NCBI GenBank assembly: GCA_024654305.1
Contig: JANLIU010000041.1
Span: 1-24,000, forward strand
Reading direction: 5' to 3'
Length of the DNA: 24,000 nucleotides
DNA from: Candidatus Parcubacteria bacterium
Lineage (GTDB): Bacteria > Patescibacteriota > Minisyncoccia > Phycocordibacterales > Phycocordibacteraceae
Position 1 is the first letter of the stretch; each line of letters begins with the position of its first letter. The notes below the pieces were generated by a model. The model was not told the DNA's origin. It saw only the letters and a list, made by a program, of their open reading frames with translations, and ran no database searches. The translations under genes were made by a program, and so were the position numbers. Shown here piece by piece: positions 1,730 to 15,805 of this stretch.

Positions 1730-2341
1730 ATGAAAACGTTCAAAATCCGCTGTGCTGGTATCTCGCCCCTGCTGATGGACCAAATGTCGAAGGCAACTCT
1801 GGAGTCGCTCGCCACCGGCGTGCGCCTGCAGGTCGCCAAGGACCGTCCCGCCGAAGACGTCGCTAAGGAGAAAATCTACCGCGACCCGAACGGCCGCATC
1901 GCCCTCCCCGCCGAGATGCTCTTCGCTGCGCTCGTCGGAGCTGGCAGGAACGTCAAGATCGGCAAGAAAGGCGTCAGCACCGCGACCACCACCCAGCTCC
2001 CGGACTTCCTGTCCATCGCGGAGTCGCATCTGCCGCTCACCAACATCCCCGCGAACGCCAACGGTGCCGAGAAAGACTTCTGGGCCGCCGACATGCGCAA
2101 AGGGATGGGCTACAACGGCAAGACGCCGACCGCCGTCGCAATCATCCGGCCGAAGTTCCCGAACTGGGAATTCGAGGTCACGGTGAAGCTCGACGAGAAG
2201 AAAGCCGGGCAAGACACGGTGATGGCGCTCTTCCAGAACGCCGGCTCCACGCAAGGACTCGGTTCGTTCCGCCCGAACAAAAAAGGCATGTTCGGACGCT
2301 TCGAGGTCGCCGAGATGAAAGAAGTCAAAGCGGCCGCGTAG
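1730..2341 (+). CDS. Hypothetical 203-aa protein with RAMP/RRM-like sequence features (possible RNA-binding protein)
   Basis: ORF 1685..2341 trimmed to MKTFKIR (ATG 1730), which has AAGGAGAAG 8 nt upstream. N-terminal strand plus SPLLM, a LPAEMLFAALVGAGR segment, and a C-terminal glycine-rich loop GLGSFRPNKKGMFGRFEV. These resemble the Cas5/6/7 RAMP pattern, judged by eye only. Confidence 0.75.
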   Translation: MKTFKIRCAGISPLLMDQMSKATLESLATGVRLQVAKDRPAEDVAKEKIYRDPNGRIALPAEMLFAALVGAGRNVKIGKKGVSTATTTQLPDFLSIAESHLPLTNIPANANGAEKDFWAADMRKGMGYNGKTPTAVAIIRPKFPNWEFEVTVKLDEKKAGQDTVMALFQNAGSTQGLGSFRPNKKGMFGRFEVAEMKEVKAAA

Positions 2342-2360
2342 TAACTCGGCTCTGTCGGGG

Positions 2361-2394
2361 ACGGGGGTCGAAAGGCTCCCGTTTGTTTTTTATT
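2361..2394 (+). terminator. Intrinsic terminator after the 203-aa gene
   Basis: ACGGGGGUC-GAAA-GGCUCCCGU forms 9 bp (two G-U pairs) with a GNRA loop, followed by UUGUUUUUUAUU. Confidence 0.7.
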
Positions 2395-2448
2395 GCGTAC
2401 ATTACTGAAGAGCGAACTATCGTGCTCTATACGTCCACTAGACTGTCG

Positions 2449-2526
2449 AGCTGGGGCAAATGAAAATTTGTCCCGCTGTTCGGGAAATGTGTATTTCCCC
2501 TGATGAGCTCGAAAGAGCGAAAACAG
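2449..2526 (+). ncRNA. Hammerhead ribozyme H1 (type III) with 5' clamp hairpin
   Basis: AGC-U-GGGGCAAAU/AUUUGUCCC-GCU hairpin, then GUUC with predicted cleavage after C2481. Stem I GGGAAAU/AUUUCCC, core CUGAUGA, stem II GCUC-GAAA-GAGC, then GAAA-ACAG pairing with CUGU (stem III). Confidence 0.9.
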
Positions 2527-2584
2527 TGTTTCAATAGAGTCTTCTAGTGCTAACTTCATTTCAGTTACCTACAGTACTGTGCAG

Positions 2585-2690
2585 AGTTGGGAGTTCTTCG
2601 GGACTCCCACTGTTCTCCCGATGTGCGTCGGGACTGATGAATCCCCGCCTCCGTTCCACTTCGGACAGGCAGGCGAAAGGACGAAAACAG
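2585..2690 (+). ncRNA. Hammerhead ribozyme H2, variant with a 31-nt insertion in loop II
   Basis: Clamp AGU-U-GGGAGUUC-UUCG-GGACUCCC-ACU (AGU/ACU covaries with AGC/GCU). Cleavage predicted after C2615. Stem I UCCCGA/UCGGGA, core CUGAUGA. Stem II UCC...GGA carries an inserted hairpin (CGCCU...AGGCG), and position 10.1 is A opposite C. Confidence 0.6.
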
Positions 2691-2753
2691 AAATGTTCTG
2701 GTGCGAAGTATGGCACCCTGTTGTGTTGTAGCCTTAGCTCTTCTGAAGTGCAG

Positions 2754-2828
2754 GTCGGAGCTTGCTCCGACAACTTAAGTGCATTCTTACGAGCGCACTT
2801 AAGGCAGTGCTTTCGAAAGAGAGTGCTG
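2754..2828 (+). ncRNA. Module B copy B1: conserved three-hairpin RNA of unknown class
   Basis: Hairpin 1 GUCGGAGC-UUG-CUCCGAC. Hairpin 2 CUUAAGUGC...GCACUUAAG with an apical UUC-UUAC-GAG. Hairpin 3 GCAGUGCUUUC-GAAA-GAGAGUGCUGU. Confidence 0.7.
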
Positions 2829-2886
2829 TAATCCAGTTAACTACTATTCTCTGTTTTAGCCCGCTGTTCTCTCTGTTATTGTATAG

Positions 2887-2963
2887 AGCTGGGGATTCCT
2901 TGCGAATCCCCGCTGTTCGGGAAGTATGGGCTTCCCCTGATGAGCTCGAAAGAGCGAAAACAG
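2887..2963 (+). ncRNA. Hammerhead ribozyme H3 (type III) with 5' clamp hairpin
   Basis: Clamp GGGGAUUC/GAAUCCCC. Cleavage after C2918. Stem I GGGAAG/CUUCCC, CUGAUGA, stem II GCUC-GAAA-GAGC, GAAAACAG. Confidence 0.9.
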
Positions 2964-3061
2964 ATGTTCTAGAAATGAAAGAGTGGTAACGGCCTACACT
3001 CCGCTGTCCTAGGCTGGTCCAAACCACTGCTGACTAGAGTGTCTCCCCCACTCCACTACAG

Positions 3062-3136
3062 GTCGGGGCCTGCTCCGACACCTTAAGTAAATTCGAGGGA
3101 GTTTATTTAAGGCGGTGCTTTCGAAAGAGAGTGTTG
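3062..3136 (+). ncRNA. Module B copy B2
   Basis: Hairpin 1 GUCGGGGC-CUG-CUCCGAC. Hairpin 2 CUUAAGUAAA/UUUAUUUAAG, which covaries with B1. Hairpin 3 GCGGUGCUUUC-GAAA-GAGAGUGUUGC. Confidence 0.7.
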
Positions 3137-3196
3137 CAAATTAAAGTGTGTTCCGCTGGCCTGGTCCATTGTTCGTTTCTCCGGGGTCCACTAAAG

Positions 3197-3271
3197 GGCT
3201 GGGGATTTGTAAAATCCCCGCTGTTCCACGGATGTGAGTCCGTGCTGATGATTCCGAAAGGATGAAAACAG
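3197..3271 (+). ncRNA. Hammerhead ribozyme H4, variant with a U:U pair at 10.1/11.1
   Basis: Clamp GGGGAUUU/AAAUCCCC. Cleavage after C3226. Stem I CACGGA/UCCGUG (covaries). CUGAUGA-UUCC-GAAA-GGAU-GAAAACAG, so the usual G10.1-C11.1 pair is replaced by U/U and the copy may be impaired. Confidence 0.6.
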
Positions 3272-3328
3272 AATCCAGTTACGTGCAGTTACCTCAACTG
3301 TTCTCAAGTTTTCTCCCGTAGACTGCAG

Positions 3329-3406
3329 AGCTGGGATTCTCGCAAAAGAATCCCGCTGTTCGCGGAATGAATGTTCCGCCTGATGAGTCGGAAACGACGA
3401 AAACAG
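3329..3406 (+). ncRNA. Hammerhead ribozyme H5 (type III) with 5' clamp hairpin
   Basis: Clamp GGGAUUCU/AGAAUCCC. Cleavage after C3361. Stem I GCGGAA/UUCCGC, CUGAUGA, stem II GUCG-GAAA-CGAC, GAAAACAG. Confidence 0.9.
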
Positions 3407-3470
3407 ATATCGGCATGCTGTAGGCTTATGCGGAGTTCTCTGTAGTATGGTCAACTCCAGTACTGTCCCG

Positions 3471-3546
3471 GTCGGGGATTCGTCCCCGACACTTAAGTAA
3501 ATTCGAGAGAGTTTATTTAAGGCAGTGCTTTCGAAAGAGAGTGCTG
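3471..3546 (+). ncRNA. Module B copy B3
   Basis: Hairpin 1 GUCGGGGA-UUCG-UCCCCGAC. Hairpin 2 CUUAAGUAAA/UUUAUUUAAG. Hairpin 3 GCAGUGCUUUC-GAAA-GAGAGUGCUGU. Confidence 0.7.
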
Positions 3547-3610
3547 TGAATCAAGTGCCCCTGTGTACAGTATTGTATTCTGCGTTGCACCAAACTCGTG
3601 TGGAGTAAGG

Positions 3611-3686
3611 AGCTGGGGCGAAGTAATTCGCCCCGCTGTTCGCGAGATGTGAGTCTCGCCTGATGAGTCCGAAAGGACGAAAACAG
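3611..3686 (+). ncRNA. Hammerhead ribozyme H6 (type III) with 5' clamp hairpin
   Basis: Clamp GGGGCGAA-GUAA-UUCGCCCC. Cleavage after C3641. Stem I GCGAGA/UCUCGC, CUGAUGA, stem II GUCC-GAAA-GGAC, GAAAACAG. Confidence 0.9.
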
Positions 3687-3749
3687 AAATTAAGTTAAGT
3701 TATGTCGAGTTTAGTACACTAATCACCTCTGCTGCCAGGTTGAGTACAG

Positions 3750-3825
3750 AGCTGGGGCAAAGCAATTTGCTCCGCTGTTCGGAAGATGTATGTCTTCCCT
3801 GATGAGCTCGAAAGAGCGAAAACAG
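3750..3825 (+). ncRNA. Hammerhead ribozyme H7 (type III), immediately upstream of the helicase RBS
   Basis: Clamp GGGGCAAA-GCAA-UUUGCUCC. Cleavage after C3780. Stem I GGAAGA/UCUUCC, CUGAUGA, stem II GCUC-GAAA-GAGC, GAAAACAG. Ends 21 nt before the AAGGAG at 3847. Confidence 0.9.
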
Positions 3826-3859
3826 TTTTGATCTTTGAATCACTACAAGGAGAACTAAT

Positions 3860-5638
3860 GTGGAACATCTCGATCCAGTGCGGTTTTTCCCGCGCAATCG
3901 GTACTCGGCAGTGCTGGGTAATCAAAAGTCTGCATTCAACTTCATCAAAGAAAGCGCCGCGAGCATCCTGGTGCTTGAATGTCCGACGGGAACGGGTAAA
4001 ACCGCCATCGGCTATTCGTATCTGCGGGCCATGCTCGCAAGTGGAGTGAAGCAACCCTTCTACCTCGTGCCAAACAAGACGCTCGCCGAACAAGTGAAAG
4101 GGCTTCATCCTGATGTGCACGCGGTCTACGGGCGGAACGAGCATCCGTGCTTGTTCTATCCGGGAGAAAATCTGCGTGCCGACGAGATACCGTGCTCATT
4201 GCTTCAAGAATGCCCGCACCGCGTCAACCAGGAAACTGGCGAAACGAAGGAGTCGGACGCAGAACGCTGTCCGTACCTGCAACAAAAGTACGAAGCAAAG
4301 CAGGGCAGAGGCATTATCGTCGCAACGCACGCGTTCTACCTCTACTCGGTCTTCTTCGCGAAAGAGTTCGAGCCCGGAGCGGTCGTCATTGACGAAGCGC
4401 ACGGCATCGCGAAGTCTATCCGGTCGGTACTTGAATTTCATATTACCGACTGGAATCTGGGGCGAATGGTGGAGCTCTTAGCTACCATCCTCTCAAGCCA
4501 GGCCGAGGTGCTCGACACCTTCCGTAAGCGGATGATCGCAATCATCAAGGCCAAAGAGGCGTCTAAGAAGACGATTCTCGAGGCCGATGAGATCAGGGAA
4601 CTCCTTGACCTCACGAACGCAATCGATACGCGCGCGGTTGATGCCGAGATTCGGGCGGCCATAGCCGTTGGGCTGGTCGATCGGAAGAAAGACCGTCTAG
4701 CATTAAAGCAACTCGAAATTCTTGGCCGCGATCTACGGATGTACATGCGGTCGTTTGAGTTCGCTCTGCCTACCGAAGCACGCCACCCTCTCAACTTCAC
4801 CTTCGCTTTCTGGAAGCGCGAGCTCGAAGAAGGGAAGCGGGTTCAGTATGAACTCGTGGTGAAGTCGTATTACGTCGCACCGTTGGTGAAGAAGATGCTC
4901 CCCAAGAACGTGCTCGCCTACTCGGCGACTATCGGCAATCCGGAGATTTTCAGCCATGAGACGGGGATTAAGGGAGAGTTTCTTTCCCTGCCGTCCACCT
5001 TCTCGTCTGACAATACTCGGATATTCATGCCGACGGACACGCCGAACTTGTCGGTCAAGGAACGCAATCGTCGTGATAAGACGAAATCGCTTCGTATGAT
5101 CGCCAAAGCGTGTGCAACGTTTGCGAAGAAAGGCATCCGCTCGCTGGTCGTCGTCGCATCAAATGAGGAACGTCAAAAATTCCTCATGCTCGCAGTCGAG
5201 GAGGGTGTGAAAGCGCTTTCCTATGGCGAAGGAGTCACTCCGCGCGCATGCGCAAAGCGATTCCGCGAGGGTGAAGGCGATGTACTCGTCGGCACTGACT
5301 CGAATTACGGCGAAGGTGTGGATCTGCCGAAAGGCATCGCACCGGTCATCTTCTACTACCGCCCGAGCTATCCGCGCCCTGACGACCCTGCATCGGTCTT
5401 TGAGGAACAGCGCTTCGGCGGCCAGCGCTGGCATGTCTGGAATTGGCGGGTGATCATTGGTCTTTTGCAGGTCCGTGGTCGCAATATCCGCTCTGTTGAA
5501 GATACTGGGGTAACATTCCTGATATCTCAGCAGTTCCGGCGCTTCGCTTATGGTTCGCTCCCCGAGTGGCTCAAGCCGGCGTATGTCGGCGGCAAGACAT
5601 TCGAGGAGTGCGTGAAGGACACGGTCAAAATGTTATAG
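3860..5638 (+). CDS. XPD/Rad3/DinG-family SF2 helicase with a predicted 4-Cys Fe-S domain (592 aa)
   Basis: GTG start at 3860, 7 nt after AAGGAG. Walker A CPTGTGKT and DEAH box VIDEAHG. Four Cys lie between motifs Ia and II (HPC, IPC, ECP, RCP), as in XPD/DinG Fe-S domains. C-terminal motifs VLVGTDSNYGEGVDLP and LLQVRGRNIRSVEDTG. Confidence 0.85.
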   Translation: MEHLDPVRFFPRNRYSAVLGNQKSAFNFIKESAASILVLECPTGTGKTAIGYSYLRAMLASGVKQPFYLVPNKTLAEQVKGLHPDVHAVYGRNEHPCLFYPGENLRADEIPCSLLQECPHRVNQETGETKESDAERCPYLQQKYEAKQGRGIIVATHAFYLYSVFFAKEFEPGAVVIDEAHGIAKSIRSVLEFHITDWNLGRMVELLATILSSQAEVLDTFRKRMIAIIKAKEASKKTILEADEIRELLDLTNAIDTRAVDAEIRAAIAVGLVDRKKDRLALKQLEILGRDLRMYMRSFEFALPTEARHPLNFTFAFWKRELEEGKRVQYELVVKSYYVAPLVKKMLPKNVLAYSATIGNPEIFSHETGIKGEFLSLPSTFSSDNTRIFMPTDTPNLSVKERNRRDKTKSLRMIAKACATFAKKGIRSLVVVASNEERQKFLMLAVEEGVKALSYGEGVTPRACAKRFREGEGDVLVGTDSNYGEGVDLPKGIAPVIFYYRPSYPRPDDPASVFEEQRFGGQRWHVWNWRVIIGLLQVRGRNIRSVEDTGVTFLISQQFRRFAYGSLPEWLKPAYVGGKTFEECVKDTVKML

Positions 5639-5691
5639 AGTAGCGTTCTGTGTCGTGTCCTGCTCCTGTGGTTCTCTAACGTCACCTACGG

Positions 5692-5780
5692 GGCGGCCTC
5701 TGTCAGTAATGACATTGGTCGCCACTTAAGTGCATTCGCAAGAGTGCATTTAAGATAGTCCTTTTGCAAAAGAGGATTGC
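5692..5780 (+). ncRNA. Module B copy B4 (divergent, in the helicase 3' UTR)
   Basis: Hairpin 1 is replaced by the longer GGCGGCC...GGUCGCC enclosing GUCA-GUAA-UGAC. Hairpin 2 CUUAAGUGCA/UGCAUUUAAG with apical UUC-GCAA-GAG. Hairpin 3 UAGUCCUUUU-GCAA-AAGAGGAUUG has a different sequence but the same fold. Confidence 0.6.
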
Positions 5781-5862
5781 GAACGAAGTGTCGTGCTCTT
5801 TCGTCAAGTAAAATATTCAACTCTCTCGTGCATTGTCGTGACTTATCGCGAACTAATCTAAA

Positions 5863-5940
5863 GAGCTGGGACTTTCTCGTAAGGTCCCGCTGTTCGGGAA
5901 GTGTGAGCTTCCCCTGATGAGTCCGAAAGGACGAAAACAG
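5863..5940 (+). ncRNA. Hammerhead ribozyme H8 (type III) with 5' clamp hairpin
   Basis: Clamp GGGACUUU/AAGGUCCC. Cleavage after C5895. Stem I GGGAAG/CUUCCC, CUGAUGA, stem II GUCC-GAAA-GGAC, GAAAACAG. Confidence 0.9.
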
Positions 5941-6019
5941 CAAACATCGTTATCTATTCTGGTGTTTTCTGTTGCCAAGCGTCCTACTGTTGGACATCGT
6001 ACGCAATGCCACAGTGCAG

Positions 6020-6096
6020 GTCGGGACTTCGGTTCCGACACTTAAGTACATTCTCGTAAGTGTACTTAAGGCAGTGCTTTCTCAAGAGAGCGCCGC
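6020..6096 (+). ncRNA. Module B copy B5
   Basis: Hairpin 1 GUCGGGAC-UUCG-GUUCCGAC. Hairpin 2 CUUAAGUACA/UGUACUUAAG. Hairpin 3 GCAGUGCUUUC-UCAA-GAGAGCGCCGC (one A/C mismatch). Confidence 0.65.
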
Positions 6097-6153
6097 AAAT
6101 GTGGTTACGTGGACTAATGTCGAGTTCTCTTCACCAAGCTAGACCTCTCTACG

Positions 6154-6229
6154 GGATGGGGATTCGCGAGAATCCCTGCTGTTCGGGAAGTGTGCACTTC
6201 CCCTGATGAGCCGGAAACGGCGAAAACAG
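6154..6229 (+). ncRNA. Hammerhead ribozyme H9 (type III), clamp base slightly degenerate
   Basis: Clamp GGGGAUUC-GCGA-GAAUCCCU, with GGAU in place of AGCU at the base. Cleavage after C6184. Stem I GGGAAG/CUUCCC, CUGAUGA, stem II GCCG-GAAA-CGGC, GAAAACAG. Confidence 0.85.
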
Positions 6230-6303
6230 AGCATTACTCTAGAGTGAATTACAGTTCTGTATTGCACGGCTGACTCCACTGCGATAGTCTGTTCTACCCC
6301 GCA

Positions 6304-6381
6304 GGTCGGAACTCCGGTTCCGACAACTTAAATGTATTCGCGAGAGTACATTTAAGGCGGTGCTTTCGAAAGAGAGTGCTG
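6304..6381 (+). ncRNA. Module B copy B6
   Basis: Hairpin 1 GUCGGAAC-UCCG-GUUCCGAC. Hairpin 2 CUUAAAUGUA/UACAUUUAAG with apical UUC-GCGA-GAG. Hairpin 3 GCGGUGCUUUC-GAAA-GAGAGUGCUGC. Confidence 0.7.
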
Positions 6382-6449
6382 CAATCCACTTGAGTGTCCT
6401 AGTGTGGCGTTCTCTGCGTTTCTGTGAGTTCCACTTTTCTCCTGTATAG

Positions 6450-6527
6450 AGCTGGGATTCTTTTCGAAGAATCCCGCTGTTCGCGGAATGAATGTTCCGC
6501 CTGATGAGCTCGAAAGAGCGAAAACAG
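6450..6527 (+). ncRNA. Hammerhead ribozyme H10 (type III) with 5' clamp hairpin
   Basis: Clamp GGGAUUCUU-UUCG-AAGAAUCCC. Cleavage after C6482. Stem I GCGGAA/UUCCGC, CUGAUGA, stem II GCUC-GAAA-GAGC, GAAAACAG. Confidence 0.9.
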
Positions 6528-6582
6528 CATCCCAGCAGAGTAGAGTGAGTCGGAGTACACTGTCGCACAGTAAATTCCTCTA

Positions 6583-6658
6583 GGCTGACTTTCTAGCCAC
6601 CACTTAAGTGCATTCTCACGAGTGTATTTAAGGCAGTGCTTTCGTAAAGAGAGTGTTG
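6583..6658 (+). ncRNA. Module B copy B7 (weak hairpin 1)
   Basis: Hairpin 1 is reduced to GGCU...AGCC. Hairpin 2 CUUAAGUGCA/UGUAUUUAAG. Hairpin 3 GCAGUGCUUUC-GUAAA-GAGAGUGUUGC. Confidence 0.6.
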
Positions 6659-6737
6659 CAAATCTGTAGGATCTACTATCCTGTTGCGTCCTGCAGTACA
6701 CTGTCGTGACCTGCATCCCTACCAATGTTCTCTACCG

Positions 6738-6773
6738 AGCTGACCCCGCCCACGGCGGGGTTGCTTTTTTGTG
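6738..6773 (+). terminator. Intrinsic terminator closing the second array, built on the clamp-hairpin frame
   Basis: AGCU-G-ACCCCGCC-CAC-GGCGGGGU-U-GCU-UUUUUUGUG. This has the same AGC...GCU framing as the hairpin preceding every hammerhead, but is followed by a U-tract instead of GUUC plus a ribozyme. Confidence 0.75.
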
Positions 6774-6808
6774 TATCAATATTACCGACCAGTGCTAGTA
6801 TTGAGAAC

Positions 6809-10103: not shown

Positions 10104-10110
10104 TATGAGT

Positions 10111-10228
10111 CCCGTTAGAAATCGCGGACGCTTTGGTACAATACAGAACATGAGTTCGTTTATTAACGATAATCGGATAGGGTTCGGCCGCGGCATTTGC
10201 TGCGCGTCCGCGTCCTATTTCTAACGGG
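10111..10228. mobile_element. MITE-like palindromic element E1 (118 bp) between pilB and pilC
   Basis: Terminal inverted repeats CCCGTTAGAAAT+CGCGGACGC and GCGTCCGCG+(tcct)+ATTTCTAACGGG. Flanked by direct ATGAG / ATGAG. Its core is homologous to E2. Confidence 0.7.
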
Positions 10229-11446
10229 ATGAGATTTCGCATTACGGTACGAAAAGAAGGTGCACCGGATGATAAACGGGTCGTTGAGGCGCCATCGCGT
10301 TTTGATGTGTATGAACAAATACGGAATGAAGGCGGTTTCGTCACGGCGATTGAAGAACTGCATGGATTTAGCTTGGATGCGCTTTCTCGTTTCAACATAT
10401 CTATCGGCACCGGCATCAAGCGCATGGAGATCATCCGCACGGCGAAGAATCTTTCCGCCATGCTCTCCGCCGGCCTTTCCATCTCACGCGCGCTTTCGGT
10501 CATTGAACGGCAATCGAATAACAAACATTTGAAAGCAATAGCCACAGGTATCGCCGAATCGGTGAAGAAAGGTTCTTCATTCCACGAGGCACTCGCCATG
10601 CATCCGGATGTATTCCCGGAGATATTCGTCGCGATGGCGCGGGCGGGAGAAGAATCAGGCTCTCTGGCAGACTCGCTCACGGTCGTCGCGCTCCAGATGG
10701 AACGTTCCGAAGAACTCATACGCAAGATAAAAGGTGCAATGATCTATCCGGCGATCGTCATCACTGCGGTCGTTGTCGTGGGCATCCTCATGCTCATTTA
10801 CGTAGTGCCGACGTTGACCAGCACATTCACTTCCCTCGGGGTGAAGGTTCCGCTTGCCACACGCGTCATCGTGGCACTTTCAAATTTCATGGTCGCGAAT
10901 GTGATGCTCGTGCTTGTGTCCTTGTTTGCGATCGTGGTCGGCGGCATTCTTTTCGTTCGTTCAAAAATCGGGAATAGGATCGTCCTTGCTGTCGCACTTC
11001 ATATGCCGGTCATCAACGAGCTCGTGCGCGAGACGTACACCGCGCGCGCCGCGCGGACACTCTCATCGCTCCTCTCCGCGGGAGTGCCGGTGCTTGACGC
11101 ACTTTCAATAACCAAAGCCGTCGTGCATGCAGAATCATTCGCGGATGTCGTCGCTGAAGCTGAAGCGCATGTGAAAAAAGGGGAATTGCTTTCCACCGCG
11201 TTCAGCGAACATCCGAAATTATATCCGATATTGATGAGCGACATGCTCGCGGTAGGGGAGGAGACTGGCAAAGTCGCCGAGATGCTGAAACAAATCGCGG
11301 AATTCTATGAAGAGGATGTGGCGCAGAAGACGAAGGACCTCTCGACCGTCATTGAGCCGCTCCTCATGCTTGTCATCGGCGCGGCCGTCGGTATCTTTGC
11401 GGTCGCGGTAATCTCACCTATTTATCAGCTGTCATCGGCTATCTAG
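10229..11446 (+). CDS. pilC: Type IV pilus platform protein PilC (GspF family)
   Basis: 405 aa with two T2SSF-type repeats and polytopic TM segments. Sits immediately downstream of pilB. Confidence 0.9.
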   Translation: MRFRITVRKEGAPDDKRVVEAPSRFDVYEQIRNEGGFVTAIEELHGFSLDALSRFNISIGTGIKRMEIIRTAKNLSAMLSAGLSISRALSVIERQSNNKHLKAIATGIAESVKKGSSFHEALAMHPDVFPEIFVAMARAGEESGSLADSLTVVALQMERSEELIRKIKGAMIYPAIVITAVVVVGILMLIYVVPTLTSTFTSLGVKVPLATRVIVALSNFMVANVMLVLVSLFAIVVGGILFVRSKIGNRIVLAVALHMPVINELVRETYTARAARTLSSLLSAGVPVLDALSITKAVVHAESFADVVAEAEAHVKKGELLSTAFSEHPKLYPILMSDMLAVGEETGKVAEMLKQIAEFYEEDVAQKTKDLSTVIEPLLMLVIGAAVGIFAVAVISPIYQLSSAI

Positions 11447-12394: not shown

Positions 12395-13728
12395 CACACT
12401 CCACTTCACCTCTTTATTCGCGAGGGCAGATCATACTGCTCGCGCTCGTTCTCGCGGGAGTATTTGCGATGGTCTCCACGGCGCTCGTAGGATTCGTAAA
12501 TTCATACGGTCGCGCGGAACGTGTGACTGTTGCGGCAGCCCAGGCGCTCGCCATCGCCGAAGGCGCTTTGGAGAATGCAATAGGGAAACTGAACCAAAAT
12601 CCCGCATATGCCGGAGAAACGAACATAACTCTCGGTCCCGGAACTTTTACCATAACGGTGGAGAGCATCGATTCTGCTACGAAACGCATCACCGCGACCG
12701 GCTCTGTGCCGAACAGTTCTAATCCGACGGCAACCAAAATCGTGAAGGCAGACGCCGGTATCAATAATGCCACCATCTCATTTCATTATGGAATCCAGTC
12801 CGGAAATGGCGGATTCTCCATGGATAACAGCTCGCTCGTGAGAGGAAATGTGTTCTCAAGCGGTTCCGTGATCGGAACAAGCCAGAACTACATATATGGT
12901 GATGTTGTTTCGTCCGGTCCGAACGGGCTCGTTTACGGCATTCATGCTACGAGTTCTGTCTACGCACACACCATCGGAAATGCCTCCGAAAACACTATCA
13001 TTGATAAAAACGCGTATTACGCCTCTACCAACAAAACCAACACGACCGTACGAGGAACTTCATTCCCGGGCAGTCCCGACCAGCCAATCGTAGATCTGCC
13101 GATATCGGACGATCAGATAAACCAATGGGAAGCGGCGGCGGCGGCGGGAGGGACCGCTACCTGTTCAGGGGGTTCCTATTCTCTTTCTGGTTCTCAAAGC
13201 GCTACTCTCGGACCGATTAAAATACCCTGTAATCTTGTTATGAGCAACAGCTCTGTCTTAACCGTGACCGGTCATATCTGGGTAACCGGAAATATTACGG
13301 TCCAAAATTCGGCTAAAGTGAAAATGGACCCGGCCTTGGGAGCAACAAATGTGGCAATCATAGCCGACAACCCGGCTAATCGGCTCACGAATAGCACTAT
13401 AAAAGTAAAAAATACCTCGACATTCGAAAACTCCGGAACACCCGGTTCATTTGTCTTTTTGATATCGCAGAACAATAGCGCCGAGACCGGTGGGGACGAG
13501 GAAGCATTTGAGTTGAGCAATAGCGCCTCAGCCCTGGTCGCTTATGCGGCGCACGGACTTATCCCGCTCGAAAACATGGTCTCTTTGAAAGAAGTCACGG
13601 CCTATAAGATCCGCCTGAAAAATTCTGCGAACGTAACCTACGACAGCGGTCTGCCGAGTGCTGTATTCGAATCCGGTCCAGGGGGAAGCTGGGCCTTCGT
13701 ACCCGGTAGCTACGCCATAACGCGCTGA
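12391..13728 (+). CDS. Pilus-associated protein with a PilX_N-like N-terminal anchor (445 aa)
   Basis: N-terminus SRGQIILLALVLAGVFAMVSTALVGFVNS resembles PilX N-terminal domains. The rest is Ser/Thr/Asn/Gly-rich and beta-rich. ATGA overlap with the upstream gene. Confidence 0.5.
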   Translation: MTHSTSPLYSRGQIILLALVLAGVFAMVSTALVGFVNSYGRAERVTVAAAQALAIAEGALENAIGKLNQNPAYAGETNITLGPGTFTITVESIDSATKRITATGSVPNSSNPTATKIVKADAGINNATISFHYGIQSGNGGFSMDNSSLVRGNVFSSGSVIGTSQNYIYGDVVSSGPNGLVYGIHATSSVYAHTIGNASENTIIDKNAYYASTNKTNTTVRGTSFPGSPDQPIVDLPISDDQINQWEAAAAAGGTATCSGGSYSLSGSQSATLGPIKIPCNLVMSNSSVLTVTGHIWVTGNITVQNSAKVKMDPALGATNVAIIADNPANRLTNSTIKVKNTSTFENSGTPGSFVFLISQNNSAETGGDEEAFELSNSASALVAYAAHGLIPLENMVSLKEVTAYKIRLKNSANVTYDSGLPSAVFESGPGGSWAFVPGSYAITR

Positions 13729-13761
13729 CTCTGGCGCGGGTTATCCTGGTATCATATAGGC

Positions 13762-14505
13762 ATGCTCATTGTTGCTAATTGGAAGGCATATGTGGAGGAA
13801 CTTGCGAAAGCGAAGAAGCTTTTTGCGCTTGCGAAGCGTTTGCAGAAGGCTACCGGTGTATCTATCGTACTCGCGCCGCCGGCCCCGCTTCTTGGCGCGC
13901 TTGCGGTGAGGAACAGATCAGCGGTCGCTTTTGCCGCACAGGATGTGTCGCTCACGACTGGCGGCGCTCACACCGGCGAAGTCACTGCGCAAGTATTTTC
14001 AGCAGCCAATGCAACTTATGCAATTATCGGACATTCGGAGCGGCGAGCGGCGGGAGATACCGATGCCATCGTTGCGGAGAAGCTCGCGCATGCGCTTGCG
14101 CACGGACTCATCCCAATACTGTGCGTCGGCGAGCAGGAGAGAGACGGCGAAGGGCACTACCTCGCTATGGTCCGCGAAGAATTGACACTCGCGATAGAAC
14201 CGCTTCCGCCAAAGGAGCGTGCGAAAGTCATTGTCGCGTATGAACCTTTATGGGCGATAGGGAAGACTGCTGATGCCGCCATCGGACCGAACGACCTTGC
14301 CGAAATGGCACTCTACATCCGCAAAGTGCTTGCGGAACTCCTGCCGGGGAAAAGTTTCTCGCATTCTCTCGTGCTGTACGGCGGTTCGGTTGAGTCTGAC
14401 AACGCGCGCTCTCTCGCGGCCGCCTCCGGTATTGATGGGTTGCTTGTCGGACACGCATCGGTGGATCCGCACACATTCTCGCTCCTGGTAAAGGAGTTAT
14501 CGTAA
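13762..14505 (+). CDS. tpiA: Triose-phosphate isomerase
   Basis: Motifs ANWK, IIGHSERR, YEPLWAIGK and YGGSV. 247 aa. Confidence 0.92.
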   Translation: MLIVANWKAYVEELAKAKKLFALAKRLQKATGVSIVLAPPAPLLGALAVRNRSAVAFAAQDVSLTTGGAHTGEVTAQVFSAANATYAIIGHSERRAAGDTDAIVAEKLAHALAHGLIPILCVGEQERDGEGHYLAMVREELTLAIEPLPPKERAKVIVAYEPLWAIGKTADAAIGPNDLAEMALYIRKVLAELLPGKSFSHSLVLYGGSVESDNARSLAAASGIDGLLVGHASVDPHTFSLLVKELS

Positions 14506-14519
14506 TTCATGATATGCGT

Positions 14520-14635
14520 CCCGTTAGAAATCACGAACACGTCTGTTAAAATTATTGCGAACATGAATTTCATTATCACTAATCAGATAGGCCACGATGT
14601 CTCCTTCGCGACGTTCGTGTTCTGTTTCTAACGGG
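14520..14635. mobile_element. MITE-like palindromic element E2 (116 bp) between tpiA and pgk
   Basis: Same termini as E1 (CCCGTTAGAAAT... / ...GTTTCTAACGGG). Flanked by direct ATGCG / ATGCG. The core GAACATGAATTTCATTATCACTAATCAGATAGG is homologous to the E1 core. Confidence 0.7.
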
Positions 14636-15805
14636 ATGCGAACTATTCGCGACATAAAAGTTTTTGAAAATATTCCGATACTGGTGCGTGCGGCATTGAA
14701 TGTGCCTATCGAGAATGGACGGGTCGTTAATGATTATCGCTTGCGCCGAGCGGTGCCGACCATTACCTACCTGCAAGAACGAGGAGCGAAAGTCGTGCTC
14801 ATCAGCCACATCGAGGGAACAAGCCTGCCTGCCGGCAGGCAGGGGACCGAGACGCTTGCACCGGTCGCAGCAGCTCTCTCGGGGCTCGTCCAAGGCGTTT
14901 CATTTTTCCCCGAAACCATAGGGGAACGGGCGCGCGCCGCCGTTCGTGAGCTCGCTCCCGGACAAGTCCTGGTGTTAGAAAATTTGCGCCGCGACAAGGG
15001 CGAGACTCGGAACGAACCGGCATTTGCGAAAGAACTCGCAGCGCTCGCGGACATTTTCGTGGAAGATTCTTTTGATACGTGCCATCGCCCGCATGCGTCC
15101 ATCATCGGCGTACCGAAATTGCTCCCTTCCTATGCCGGCCTTTTGCTTGAGCAAGAAGTTGAAGCGTTGTCACAGGCGCTCACGCCGAAGCATCCGGCGT
15201 TCGCCGTCATTGGTGGGGCGAAGTTCAATACAAAAGAGAACGTCCTCTCGACTCTTCTCAAAGTCTACGACCATGTGTTCGTCGGCGGTGCGCTCGCAGA
15301 TGATTTTCTCAAAGCTTCGGGGCAGGAAGTGGGGGCTTCACTCGTTTCGGATGCTGATGAGAAATCGATAAAAAAACTTCTCGCCAATCCGAAGCTCGTA
15401 TTGCCGGTGGACTCCATCGTCATGCCCGCCACCGCAGTTGGCACGATGAACGCACGCACCGAAGCGCGCATCGCATCATTGGGGCAGGTGCGGCCCGATG
15501 AGACTATTCTGGACCACGGACCCGGCACCATCGCTCTCCTTTCCAATCTCGCGCAGAAAGCAAAAACCATTCTCTGGAACGGCCCGTTGGGGAATTATGA
15601 AAACGGATTCAGTGATGCGACCGATTCGTTCGCACGCGCTGTCGCCGCTTCCGGTGCGCATTCAGTGGTAGGCGGCGGCGACACGGTTGCCTCCATAGAA
15701 GGGCTCGGTCTTCTCCCGCGATTCTCATTTGTCTCCACCGGCGGCGGTGCAATGTTGGATTTCCTCGCCAAAGGCACGCTCCCGGGTATTGATGCTTTAC
15801 AGTAG
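14636..15805 (+). CDS. pgk: Phosphoglycerate kinase
   Basis: ORF 14597..15805 trimmed to MRTIRDIKVF (ATG 14636, directly after E2). Motifs RAALNVP, GGAKFNTK and FVSTGGGAMLDFL. Confidence 0.9.
   Translation: MRTIRDIKVFENIPILVRAALNVPIENGRVVNDYRLRRAVPTITYLQERGAKVVLISHIEGTSLPAGRQGTETLAPVAAALSGLVQGVSFFPETIGERARAAVRELAPGQVLVLENLRRDKGETRNEPAFAKELAALADIFVEDSFDTCHRPHASIIGVPKLLPSYAGLLLEQEVEALSQALTPKHPAFAVIGGAKFNTKENVLSTLLKVYDHVFVGGALADDFLKASGQEVGASLVSDADEKSIKKLLANPKLVLPVDSIVMPATAVGTMNARTEARIASLGQVRPDETILDHGPGTIALLSNLAQKAKTILWNGPLGNYENGFSDATDSFARAVAASGAHSVVGGGDTVASIEGLGLLPRFSFVSTGGGAMLDFLAKGTLPGIDALQ
14824..14843. repeat. Perfect 20-nt palindrome inside pgk
   Basis: CCTGCCTGCCGGCAGGCAGG is its own reverse complement. 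It encodes the LPAGRQ segment of pgk. Confidence 0.9.

What the first reader, a model, noticed from the sequence alone, without database searches (positions are those of the whole stretch)
2754..6658. Module B: a ~75-nt three-hairpin RNA repeated seven times, of no class I can recognise
The consensus has three parts. First is a GC-rich hairpin 1 (GUCGGNNN-loop-NNNCCGAC). Second is a 13-bp hairpin 2 on a conserved CUUAAG base with an apical UUC-NNNN-GAG. Third is a 10-11-bp hairpin 3 (GCRGUGCUUUC-GAAA-GAGAGUGYUGY), followed by AAAU-like sequence. Compensatory changes are clear. In hairpin 2 the internal triplets are UGC/GCA, UAA/UUA, UAC/GUA and UGU/ACA. In B4, hairpin 3 is entirely re-written (UAGUCCUUUU-GCAA-AAGAGGAUUG) but still folds. 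Apical loops are often GNRA (GAAA, GCAA, GCGA). This could be a protein-binding scaffold or a new self-cleaving or ligating motif. New ribozyme classes have historically been found next to hammerheads and twisters.
Basis: seen in the sequence. Interest (0 to 1): 0.85.

Follow-up and report, generated by a model that had tools for sequence, protein, structure and literature searches.

The report
Structured tail of VIPR guide RNAs
The seven-fold "three-hairpin RNA" is real, but it is not a free-standing new RNA class: it is the conserved non-guide part of guide RNAs in a hammerhead-punctuated array. That array belongs to a VIPR system, an RNA-guided DNA-recognition system related to CRISPR and first described in a 2026 preprint, here carried by a Candidatus Kaiserbacteria genome.

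Summary
**Observation:** confirmed. There are seven + strand copies at 2754-6659. Each folds into three hairpins, with real compensatory changes, and none has an Rfam match.

**Context:**
- The 204-aa gene upstream (1730-2341) is a Vipr protein, a RAMP/Cas7-like fold. Its profile hits PDB "SUSP1 Vipr protein" at E 2e-10.
- The 592-aa gene in the middle is a DinG/XPD-type helicase. It accompanies vipr in every related locus that holds enough DNA to judge.
- All 17 "variable" segments between the repeats are runs of 9-19 pentanucleotide units, NNN-S-Y. This is the vrRNA guide code described for VIPR (bioRxiv 10.64898/2026.04.26.720920), which also reports hammerhead-interspersed arrays.

**What module B is:**
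- Hairpin 1 is the 3' tail that caps the preceding guide tract.
- Hairpins 2 and 3 form a double hairpin found only in the Kaiserbacteria-type loci. It sits exactly where a type III hammerhead sits at the other junctions.
- Its role (extended cap, boundary or processing signal) is inferred, not shown.
- Nothing supports a new ribozyme. All conserved positions lie in helices and the loops vary.

**Verdict:** a new structural variant within a recently described kind, of moderate interest.

The parts
1730..2341 (+). vipr gene (204 aa; RAMP/Cas7-like Vipr protein, G-loop GLGSFRPNKKGMFGRF)
   Evidence: The profile of 37 homologues hits PDB 36pp_D 'SUSP1 Vipr protein' at E 2.3e-10 over the full length. 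The AF2 model has pLDDT 90. The top Foldseek hits are Csm3 and type VII Cas7.
2359..2394 (+). terminator-like hairpin plus U-run directly after vipr
   Evidence: consensus scan only
2449..2526 (+). tail hairpin (AGC-U-GGGG..CCCC-GCU) plus hammerhead HH1 (type III); predicted cleavage after C2481
   Evidence: (RF00008, 38.2 bits, below the gathering score)
2527..2586 (+). guide tract T1 (11 pentanucleotide units NNNSY)
2587..2690 (+). tail hairpin plus HH2 (hammerhead with about 30 nt inserted in helix II); CUGUUC ends at 2615
   Evidence: (D6)
2691..2753 (+). guide tract T2 (11 units)
2754..2829 (+). module B1 (hp1 2754-2771, hp2 2774-2803, hp3 2804-2829)
   Evidence: (81.4 bits)
2830..2886 (+). 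guide tract T3 (11 units)
2887..2963 (+). tail hairpin plus HH3; cleavage after 2918
2964..3060 (+). guide tract T4 (about 19 units, with register slips)
3061..3137 (+). module B2
   Evidence: (80.5 bits)
3138..3194 (+). guide tract T5 (11 units)
3195..3271 (+). tail hairpin plus HH4 (U.U at positions 10.1/11.1); cleavage after 3226
3272..3329 (+). guide tract T6 (11 units); the only tract with a candidate target under the NNx rule
   Evidence: (z5 = 4.7)
3330..3406 (+). tail hairpin plus HH5; cleavage after 3361
3407..3469 (+). guide tract T7 (12 units)
3470..3547 (+). module B3
   Evidence: (85.9 bits)
3548..3609 (+). guide tract T8 (12 units)
3610..3686 (+). tail hairpin plus HH6; cleavage after 3641
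3687..3748 (+). guide tract T9 (12 units)
   Evidence: (z5 = 5.9)
3749..3825 (+). tail hairpin plus HH7, 34 nt before the helicase start codon (RBS aaggag)
3860..5638 (+). DinG/XPD-type SF2 helicase (592 aa; Walker A CPTGTGKT, DEAH, 4 Cys); the probable vap accessory gene
   Evidence: Supported. The best family match is PADLOC typeIV_DinG, at E 1.3e-40 over the full length. The helicase co-occurs with vipr in 14 related loci (L001-L006, L008-L012, L015-L017) at 48-93% identity.
5639..5691 (+). guide tract T10 (10 units)
5692..5780 (+). module B4 (extended hp1 with an inner hairpin; hp3 rewritten with compensation)
   Evidence: (76.8 bits)
5783..5862 (+). guide tract T11 (16 units)
5863..5940 (+). 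tail hairpin plus HH8; cleavage after 5895
5941..6019 (+). guide tract T12 (15 units)
6020..6096 (+). module B5
   Evidence: (79.1 bits)
6098..6152 (+). guide tract T13 (11 units)
6153..6229 (+). tail hairpin plus HH9; cleavage after 6184
   Evidence: (36.1 bits)
6230..6304 (+). guide tract T14 (14 units)
6305..6382 (+). module B6
   Evidence: (84 bits)
6383..6449 (+). guide tract T15 (13 units); the only tract shared with a sister locus (L015 4076-4143, 96% identity)
6450..6527 (+). tail hairpin plus HH10; cleavage after 6482
   Evidence: (35.1 bits)
6528..6582 (+). guide tract T16 (9 units)
   Evidence: (Y fraction 1.0)
6583..6659 (+). module B7 (weak hp1, GGCU..AGCC)
   Evidence: (80.5 bits)
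6660..6736 (+). guide tract T17 (15 units)
6737..6775 (+). last tail hairpin (GAGC-U-GACCCCGCC..GGCGGGGUU-GCU) followed by a U-run; doubles as the intrinsic terminator of the array
   Evidence: the same arrangement occurs in L007

Best explanation
Window 1730-6775 is one VIPR (Viral Interference Programmable Repeat) locus in a Candidatus Kaiserbacteria chromosome. It comprises vipr (a RAMP protein), a guide-RNA array, a DinG/XPD-type helicase gene, and a second stretch of array ending in a terminator.

**The guides (shown).** The guides (vrRNAs) are the 17 stretches of 9-19 pentanucleotide units, NNN-S-Y. This corresponds to the published Y-NN-N-G type of unit.

**How they act (by analogy with the SUSP1 system; inferred).**
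- One Vipr protomer binds each unit, sequestering the conserved N-S-Y.
- The two variable bases that follow are presented to read DNA with one base skipped per unit.

**Junction elements (shown from sequence).**
- Each tract ends in ..AG(R) and is capped at its 3' side by a G-rich tail hairpin.
- After the tail comes one of three things: a type III hammerhead that would cut right after the tail (..CCCCGCUGUUC|); the double hairpin hp2-hp3; or, at the end of the array, a U-run.

**What module B is.**
- Module B is therefore hp1, the 3' tail of the upstream vrRNA, followed by hp2-hp3.
- hp2-hp3 is a clade-specific pair of abutting, possibly coaxially stacked helices of 13 and 11 bp. It fills the slot of the hammerhead body between one vrRNA and the next.

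**Most likely role of hp2-hp3 (inferred).**
- It is a protein-recognised cap or boundary element. It would stop the Vipr filament and exonucleases at the junction, or direct an RNase there.
- As a result, each hammerhead-to-hammerhead transcript of about 290 nt carries two guides separated by B.
For: **Protein and locus.**
- The 204-aa protein is a Vipr homologue with a Cas7-like fold.
- The helicase is best matched by the type IV CasDinG model. It is syntenic with vipr in Kaiserbacteria, Saccharibacteria and Paceibacterota loci.
- The published description of VIPR fits: 9-16 pentanucleotide repeats followed by an invariable structured 3' tail; variant repeat consensuses such as YNNNG; hammerhead-interspersed arrays; and helicase or nuclease accessory genes.

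**Guide tracts.**
- Period-5 signal is present in the 17 inter-element segments, with a mean z of 1.8 against -0.08 in coding controls.
- The Y fraction in the best phase is 0.71-1.0.
- Among parsed units, position 4 is S in 86% and position 5 is Y in 94%.
- A tract detector flags 17 array segments on the + strand, 2 places elsewhere on the + strand and 1 on the - strand in 24 kb.

**Register and position of B.**
- The pentanucleotide register runs directly into hp1 (..GCAG|GUCGG), and restarts at the last bases of hp3.
- The tail hairpins before the hammerheads have the same preceding ..CAG(A) and a G-rich 5' arm.
- In L014, hp2-hp3 follows a GCUGGG-type tail that elsewhere precedes a hammerhead.
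- All 14 B copies are preceded by a hammerhead or by the helicase stop codon. Each is followed, one tract later, by a hammerhead or by a tail hairpin that doubles as the terminator (B7 and L007). B is never adjacent to another B.

**Comparison with other loci.**
- Distant loci of the same VIPR type have tails made of a single hairpin and no hp2-hp3.
- Guides turn over while B stays conserved: only 1 of 18 window segments tested (the 17 tracts plus the short stretch before HH1) is shared with a locus whose Vipr is 98% identical.

**Structure of hp2-hp3.** It is supported by covariation.
Against: - There are no expression or end-mapping data. Whether hp2-hp3 stays attached to the upstream vrRNA, to the downstream one, or to both is unknown.
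- The repeat consensus has S (G 47%, C 39%) where the published variants have G. My unit parse was optimised for that pattern.
- The target search under the 1-nt-skip rule was essentially negative. One tract (T6) matches a CHAP lysin gene of an Erysipelothrix phage SE-1-like virus at 21 of 22 guide positions, with the skipped bases on codon third positions. About 0.02-0.1 such hits are expected by chance, and that host is ecologically implausible.
- I could not see the preprint's figures or data tables. I therefore cannot say which VIPR type this is, or whether a B-like tail is already drawn there.
- Only 14 B copies from closely related genomes were available, so part of the sequence conservation may simply reflect recent common descent.
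Confidence: 0.8

Rival explanations
1. hp2-hp3, with or without hp1, is a new class of self-cleaving ribozyme. It would replace the hammerhead at alternate junctions and release the upstream vrRNA.
For: - It occupies exactly the slot of the hammerhead body and is of similar length (about 57 nt against about 55 nt).
- In L014 it follows the tail type that normally precedes a hammerhead.
- New ribozyme classes have historically been found next to hammerheads (my own knowledge of Weinberg et al. 2015).
- Its helices contain invariant or nearly invariant U.G wobbles.
Against: - Every conserved position lies inside regular helices. The junctions are 0-3 nt and not conserved.
- The apical loops vary freely (UUAC, GAGG, GCAA, UCGU, CCAAAAA...), so a loop-based pseudoknot or catalytic core is unlikely.
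- No Rfam ribozyme model matches, even at E <= 10.
- No ribozyme class other than the hammerhead occurs in seven related arrays.
- Related arrays manage with no element at all after the tail.
Confidence: 0.07
2. hp2-hp3 is a recognition site for a host double-strand-specific or hairpin-specific RNase, such as RNase III acting on the stacked 13 + 11 bp helices. It would separate the two vrRNAs of a hammerhead-to-hammerhead unit. This is a more specific version of the 'boundary' reading.
For: - The two perfect helices abut, with at most one nucleotide between them.
- Stem sequence is conserved beyond what pairing alone requires, which is typical of protein sites.
- Two guides per unit would otherwise remain joined.
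Against: - There are no end-mapping data.
- Each helix alone is shorter than a canonical RNase III substrate.
- Related arrays without hp2-hp3 or a hammerhead are presumably processed some other way.
Confidence: 0.2
3. B is an independent small RNA or protein-binding scaffold, unrelated to the guide array, that merely shares the transcript.
For: Its structure is strongly conserved and supported by covariation. It is rare outside this clade.
Against: - It is never found outside VIPR arrays in any locus examined.
- It is always in register with the tracts on both sides.
- Its hp1 is interchangeable with the array's other tail hairpins.
Confidence: 0.03
4. This is a DNA-level repeat, such as a REP/MITE-like palindrome or a recombination site, rather than an RNA structure.
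For: CTTAAG is a palindrome and hp2 is a near-perfect inverted repeat.
Against: - Invariant and frequent G.U wobbles would be C.A mismatches on the other strand.
- CM scores are 60-86 bits on the + strand against at most 28 on the - strand.
- The reverse strand folds worse.
- All copies have one orientation inside one transcription unit that ends in a terminator.
Confidence: 0.02

Closest known systems
VIPR systems: vrRNA 3' tail (SUSP1 / P. fulva clades; bioRxiv 10.64898/2026.04.26.720920 and 10.64898/2026.04.26.720927)
   Same: - A Vipr RAMP protein is present.
- The guide is made of tandem pentanucleotide units with a conserved pyrimidine.
- A conserved structured element lies directly 3' of the tract.
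- An accessory gene lies next to vipr.
- Several guides are arranged in arrays on both sides of the genes.
- There are no CRISPR repeats.
   Different: - The tail here is a plain G-rich hairpin, extended by two further hairpins, rather than a ~40-nt pseudoknot.
- The unit consensus is N-S-Y-N-N rather than G-G-Y-N-N.
- The accessory gene is a DinG/XPD-type helicase.
- The host is a Patescibacteria chromosome rather than a phage.
Hammerhead ribozyme-interspersed vrRNA arrays (VIPR types I and V; fig. S19 of the same preprint)
   Same: Type III hammerheads lie between adjacent vrRNAs, and the predicted cleavage defines vrRNA ends.
   Different: - Here only about half of the junctions carry a hammerhead. 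The others carry the hp2-hp3 double hairpin, or a terminator at the end of the array.
- I could not see the figure, so I cannot say whether such mixed arrays are shown there.
CRISPR repeat hairpins / crRNA 3' handles bound by Cas6-type RAMPs (class 1 systems)
   Same: A conserved hairpin flanks a variable guide, recognised by or associated with RAMP proteins. Arrays are cut into unit RNAs.
   Different: - The 'repeats' here are not identical in sequence; their stems covary.
- The guides are 45-95 nt of gapped code rather than 30-40 nt contiguous spacers.
- Cutting is by ribozymes.
- No cas genes are present and no adaptation module is known.
Type IV-A CRISPR CasDinG (Csf4)
   Same: The helicase's best profile match is to this family (E 1.3e-40, full length). 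In both cases the helicase sits beside a RAMP-based RNA-guided module.
   Different: No Csf1, Csf2, Csf3 or Csf5 genes are present. The four cysteines suggest an Fe-S domain like XPD/DinG. NCBIfam DinG, YoaA and Rad3 models match only far below their cut-offs.
Drum RNA motif and other structured RNAs found beside self-cleaving ribozymes (Weinberg et al. 2017; from memory)
   Same: It is a conserved structured RNA, of unknown catalytic status, that clusters with hammerheads.
   Different: There is no Rfam match to Drum or to any other family. Here the genomic logic, a guide-RNA array, explains the clustering.

Membership tests
VIPR system | Vipr protein: a minimal RAMP (RRM core, G-loop, thumb) homologous to the SUSP1 Vipr | tested here: met
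   The profile hits PDB 36pp_D at E 2.3e-10, covering residues 1-198 against 1-195 and including the G-loop. The AF2 model has pLDDT 90 and a Csm3/Cas7-like fold.
VIPR system | vrRNA tract: at least 4 tandem pentanucleotide units with a conserved GGY or related consensus, alternating with variable NN | tested here: met
   There are 17 tracts of 9-19 units. The consensus is N-S-Y (S 86%, Y 94%), closest to the published 'YNNNG' variant but with C as well as G.
VIPR system | An invariable structured 3' tail directly after the tract | tested here: met
   Every tract runs into a G-rich hairpin: hp1 of B, the AGC-U-GGGG..CCCC-GCU hairpin, or the terminator hairpin.
VIPR system | A minimal locus of vipr plus one accessory (vap) gene, with no CRISPR array or cas operon | tested here: met
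   The locus is vipr plus a helicase, conserved in 14 related loci (L001-L006, L008-L012, L015-L017). The window has no CRISPR-like identical repeats. The neighbours are housekeeping genes.
VIPR system | vrRNAs are expressed, processed and bound by Vipr | not testable with these tools
   This needs sRNA-seq or pull-down experiments.
VIPR system | DNA targets obey the 1-nt-skip (NNx) rule | tested here: inconclusive
   - Seven exact-pattern scans of IMG/VR used five tracts.
- One candidate was found, for T6: 21 of 22 guide positions, with skip bases on codon third positions in a CHAP lysin gene.
- About 0.02-0.1 such hits are expected by chance.
- The matching virus infects an ecologically unlikely host.
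Hammerhead ribozyme, type III (RF00008) | Core CUGAUGA ... GAAA, an NUH cleavage triplet, closed stems I and II and an open stem III | tested here: met
   - Ten copies carry CUGAUGA, GAAA and UUC|, with a 5-bp stem III CUGUU/AACAG.
- Eight of the ten copies are detected by the Rfam model at E 8e-6 to 0.29.
- Their scores of 22-38 bits are below the 48.5-bit gathering score.
- Cleavage itself was not tested.
Known small self-cleaving ribozymes (twister, twister-sister, pistol, hatchet, HDV-like, hairpin, hovlinc) | Module B matches the family's covariance model | tested here: not met
   There is no hit on B at gathering scores or at E <= 10. None is found in related arrays either.
Type IV-A CRISPR-Cas | Csf1/Csf2/Csf3/Csf5 effector genes and a CRISPR array next to CasDinG | tested here: not met
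   Only the helicase resembles CasDinG. The neighbouring genes are NusA, PilB, PilC and others, and there is no CRISPR array.

The most novel reading that the evidence does not exclude
hp2-hp3 is a previously unknown RNA-processing element: either a new self-cleaving motif, or the dedicated substrate of an unknown nuclease. It would have evolved to replace the hammerhead at alternate junctions of a natural ribozyme-flanked guide-RNA array. That would make the array a natural two-system 'ribozyme-guide-ribozyme' cassette.
Probability: 0.08. Interest if true: 0.8.

Novelty: new variant of a known kind. Interest (0 to 1): 0.42.

Why it matters
- VIPR was described only months ago as an RNA-guided DNA-recognition system proposed to be older than CRISPR.
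- This locus shows a helicase-associated form in Patescibacteria. It carries at least 17 guides, natural hammerhead processing, and a second, non-ribozyme junction element.
- How vrRNA arrays are cut into units, and what defines the 3' cap recognised by the Vipr filament, are open points. B gives a compact, covariation-supported element on which both can be tested.
- For the genome scan, the main value is that an apparently unclassifiable RNA is explained by its context.

Tried and rejected
**Known RNA families.** I searched Rfam at gathering scores and at E <= 10. Only sub-threshold hammerheads were found, and nothing on B.

**Searches for more B copies.**
- A B DNA pattern scan of IMG/VR found nothing.
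- The same approach on JGI metagenomes gave 6 loci, of which 5 are chance matches and 1 is the known L001 type.
- So I could not enlarge the alignment beyond 14 copies.
- blastn of the array against the phage collection found no match.

**Other ideas considered.**
- CRISPR-like array: rejected, because the 'repeats' are not identical and the spacers are periodic.
- Integron attC sites: rejected, because the elements are too short and lack the R'/R'' cores.
- ToxIN-like RNA antitoxin repeats: rejected, because there is no toxin gene in the locus.
- tRNA-like elements: ARAGORN found none.
- hp2-hp3 as a degenerate hammerhead: rejected, because there is no CUGAUGA or GAAA in the junctions.

**Literature.** Searches for hammerheads in Patescibacteria/CPR found nothing relevant.

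**Target searches.** Ten-unit exact patterns for tracts T6, T7 and T9 gave nothing. Eight-unit patterns for T7, T14 and T15 gave only hits that do not extend.

**VIPR type.** I could not assign one. The preprint's supplementary tables and figures are not held.

Full report
**1.

Region 2400-6775 of the + strand contains two interleaved repeat families.
- One family is a ~55-nt type III hammerhead. It is always preceded by a hairpin with the conserved base GAGCUGGGG...CCCCGCUGUUC. There are ten copies. Rfam's Hammerhead_3 model detects eight of them at 22-38 bits, below the 48.5-bit gathering score.

Each B folds by itself into three hairpins, with z-scores of -3.6 to -7.1. The opposite strand folds worse. 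Rfam has nothing for B, even at E <= 10.

**2. Covariation with more homologues.**

Loci found through the two neighbouring proteins gave seven further distinct B copies: L001 x2, L014, L015 x2, L016 and L007. On the 14-sequence alignment of hairpins 2 and 3:
- 97.3% of cells pair.
- 10 of 24 pairs carry compensatory double changes. Examples are U-A to G-C inside the 'CUUAAG' base in L007, and several changes in hairpin 3.
- None of 500 shuffles reaches the observed value on any measure. Slid registers give 37-53% pairing.
- RNAalifold returns the same structure.

U.G wobbles (invariant at one pair, in 13 of 14 copies at another) and the covariance-model scores (60-86 bits on +, at most 28 on -) fix the strand.

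Hairpin 1 is a hairpin in all 14 copies, but its stem sequence differs widely between them.

The set is small and phylogenetically narrow. A metagenome-wide pattern scan added nothing new. The structure is therefore well supported, but the sequence conservation is weakly informative.

**3. What the surroundings say.**

The window is a bacterial chromosome carrying NusA, PilB, PilC, PGK and RecJ. It comes from a Candidatus Kaiserbacteria lineage; the nearest helicase, at 92% identity, is from GCA_001781305.1.

*The 204-aa protein.*
- It is encoded at 1730-2341 and has no Pfam, NCBIfam or PADLOC match.
- A profile of 37 homologues hits one PDB entry over its whole length: 36pp, 'SUSP1 Vipr protein', at E 2.3e-10. 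The match includes the C-terminal glycine-rich loop.
- Its AlphaFold model (pLDDT 90) is most similar to the Csm3 and type VII Cas7 backbone subunits.

*The 592-aa protein.*
- It is an SF2 helicase with Walker A, DEAH and four cysteines in the position of the XPD/DinG Fe-S domain.
- Its best family match is the type IV CRISPR CasDinG model, at E 1.3e-40.
- It accompanies vipr in every related locus long enough to tell. These span Kaiserbacteria, Saccharibacteria and Paceibacterota, at 48-93% identity.

**4. The published system.**

Two 2026 preprints describe VIPR (10.64898/2026.04.26.720920 and 10.64898/2026.04.26.720927). According to them:
- A Vipr RAMP protein polymerises along a vrRNA made of 9-16 pentanucleotide units (YNNGG, with variants NNNGG, YNNNG and NNNNG).
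- It sequesters the conserved triplet and presents the NN bases, which read double-stranded DNA with one base skipped per unit.
- An invariable structured 3' tail caps the tract. In SUSP1 this is a pseudoknot.
- Loci are minimal: vipr plus one accessory gene.
- Some types have 'hammerhead ribozyme-interspersed arrays', and some carry nucleases or helicases.

**5. The 'variable spacers' are the guides.**

All 17 segments between the repeated elements show pentanucleotide periodicity.
- Period 5 gives the strongest Fourier power in most segments. Mean z is 1.8, against -0.08 for coding controls.
- The best phase has 71-100% pyrimidine.
- A parse that allows slips gives 9-19 units per tract. Position 4 is G or C in 86% of units, and position 5 is T or C in 94% (T in 78%).
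- A simple detector flags these 17 segments, and only 3 other places on either strand, in the 24 kb.
- The same detector finds 24 tracts in L008 and 43 in a Saccharibacteria locus, L010.

The tracts are hypervariable. Of 18 window segments compared (the 17 tracts plus the short stretch before HH1), only one recurs in L015, although its Vipr is 98% identical.

**6. Where B sits.**

- The pentanucleotide register runs straight into hairpin 1 (..GCAG|GUCGG).
- The hairpin in front of each hammerhead is entered in the same way (..CAGA|GCUGGGG) and has the same G-rich 5' arm.
- In L008 and L010 the tail is such a hairpin alone, and the next tract follows directly.
- Hairpin 1 is therefore the vrRNA tail.
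- Hairpins 2-3 are an addition seen only in the Kaiserbacteria-type loci, where the helicase is at least 78% identical. The covariance model finds none in L008 or L010-L013.

hp2-hp3 occupies the slot that the hammerhead body occupies at the other junctions.
- The lengths are similar.
- Each is followed directly by the next tract.
- In L014, hp2-hp3 follows the GCUGGG-type tail that elsewhere precedes a hammerhead.

All 14 B copies are preceded by a hammerhead or by the helicase stop codon. Each is followed, one tract later, by a hammerhead or by a tail hairpin that doubles as the terminator (B7 and L007). B never neighbours another B. After hammerhead cleavage, a unit would therefore read: 5'-hammerhead body, tract, B, tract, tail-GCUGUUC-3'.

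At the end of the array, the tail hairpin carries a U-run and serves as the terminator (window 6737-6775, and also L007).

**7. Mechanism: shown and inferred.**

*Shown from sequence.*
- The protein homologies.
- The periodic tracts.
- The tail hairpins.
- The intact hammerhead cores with an NUH site directly after the tail.
- The structure of B and its fixed position.

*Inferred from the SUSP1 work.*
- Vipr forms a filament on each tract.
- The tail caps that filament.
- The two bases after each pyrimidine read DNA.

*Inferred from anatomy only.*
- hp2-hp3 is a rigid double helix recognised by a protein. It would act as a cap, an insulator or a nuclease signal between two guides.
- The helicase would act on the bound DNA. 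That idea rests only on analogy with type IV CasDinG.

A ribozyme function for hp2-hp3 is unlikely, though not excluded, for three reasons.
- All conserved positions are base-paired.
- The junctions are 0-3 unconserved nucleotides.
- The loops vary.

**8. Targets.**

I used the published NNx rule and took the two bases after each Y as the guide positions.
- Exact 10-unit patterns for three tracts found nothing in IMG/VR.
- Eight-unit patterns gave 5, 16, 3 and 15 hits.
- Only tract T6 extends. Two related contigs match 21 of 22 guide positions: L024 and L026, which are 94% identical to Erysipelothrix phage SE-1.
- The match lies in a CHAP-domain lysin gene, over the catalytic motif ALGNCTWYAFG. 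All skipped bases fall on codon third positions.

The codon phasing mirrors what the preprint reports. However, about 0.02-0.1 such hits would be expected by chance across my scans, and the host is an unlikely partner for a groundwater Kaiserbacterium. I treat this as a lead, not a finding.

**9. Comparison and novelty.**

The locus meets every sequence-level criterion of a VIPR system (see the membership table). It resembles the published hammerhead-interspersed arrays.

What I did not find described in the text available to me:
- the three-hairpin tail, that is, the hp2-hp3 module alternating with hammerheads;
- the G/C alternation at the fourth unit position;
- the tail hairpin doubling as a terminator.

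Some of these features may already be shown there, and I cannot assign the type. Helicase accessory genes are mentioned for types III-V, and hammerhead arrays for types I and V.

I therefore rate this a new variant of a known kind, of moderate interest. Neither occurred. The interpretation changes because of context, not because the RNA is unreal.

Noticed in passing
window 3272-3329 (tract T6); L026 1751-1782; L024 9704-9726: Under the NNx rule, T6 matches 21 of 22 guide positions in the CHAP-lysin gene of Erysipelothrix phage SE-1-like viral contigs. The match covers the catalytic motif ALGNCTWYAFG, with every skipped base on a codon third position. About 0.02-0.1 such hits are expected by chance, and the host is ecologically odd.
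   Followed up: partly
window 2400-6736 compared with L015 1320-4300: Guide content turns over very fast. Only tract T15 (6383-6450) is shared, at 96% identity with L015 4076-4143, with a locus whose Vipr is 98% and helicase 93% identical. The number of array units also differs: 10 hammerheads and 7 B here, against 6 hammerheads and 2 B in L015, and 3 hammerheads and 2 B in L001.
   Followed up: partly
L010 9768-16593 (uncultured Candidatus Saccharibacteria, CAYVFG010000001.1): This is a very large array of the same VIPR type: 43 detected tracts, spaced about 80 nt apart. The tails are GAGCAAG..CUUGCUUGUGUUAU hairpins. No hammerheads were seen within the array and there is no B, with the helicase gene in the middle (13535-15376).
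   Followed up: partly
L008 4009-4395 and 4871-5185: Two small ORFs (128 and 104 aa), with good ribosome-binding sites and no family match, lie inside the vrRNA array of a more distant locus. The second is directly preceded by a hammerhead (4797-4851, 45.9 bits). They may be extra accessory genes released from the transcript by the ribozyme.
   Followed up: no
window 2610-2690 (HH2) and 3221-3271 (HH4); L015 ~4170-4217: There are two atypical hammerheads. HH2 carries a ~30-nt insertion that extends helix II. HH4 has U.U instead of the conserved G10.1-C11.1 pair, and the same variant recurs in L015. Their activity is uncertain.
   Followed up: no
window 3860-5638: The helicase has four cysteines (C96, C112, C118, C136) between Walker A and DEAH, as in the Fe-S domain of XPD/DinG. 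Yet it is far better matched by the type IV CRISPR CasDinG profile (E 1e-40) than by DinG, YoaA or Rad3 models (E 1e-16 or worse). Hundreds of homologues at 50% identity or more exist in Patescibacteria.
   Followed up: partly
window / L001 / L016 (NusA-PilB), L014 (ribosomal protein operon), L015 (PemK toxin), L007 (amidase), L008 (SNF2 helicase, Fic): The vipr-array-helicase module sits in different chromosomal neighbourhoods in related genomes. This suggests it moves as a unit. No integrase or other mobility gene was seen in the flanks examined.
   Followed up: no
window 2359-2394: A terminator-like hairpin plus U-run lies right after vipr and before the first tract. No promoter-like site was found for the array itself; the only good sigma-70-like match is upstream of vipr, at 1627-1655. 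How the array is transcribed is unclear.
   Followed up: no
window 10104-10234 and 14513-14641: This is unrelated to the finding. It is a ~130-nt intergenic element with long terminal inverted repeats (TATGNGTCCCGTTAGAAATC ... GATTTCTAACGGGATGNGA), in two copies that are 78% identical. Each folds into one long hairpin (z about -5). One copy lies between pilB and pilC, the other before pgk. It looks MITE-like or could be a structured RNA.
   Followed up: partly
phage records OQ594955.1, MG969404.1, OM386665.1, MG251391.1, OP820472.1: The Kaiserbacteria Vipr finds weak but full-length tblastn matches (24-26% identity, E 3e-6 to 7e-4). They fall in unannotated or hypothetical genes of Pseudomonas, Salmonella, Escherichia and Gordonia phages, in line with the phage distribution reported for VIPR.
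   Followed up: no
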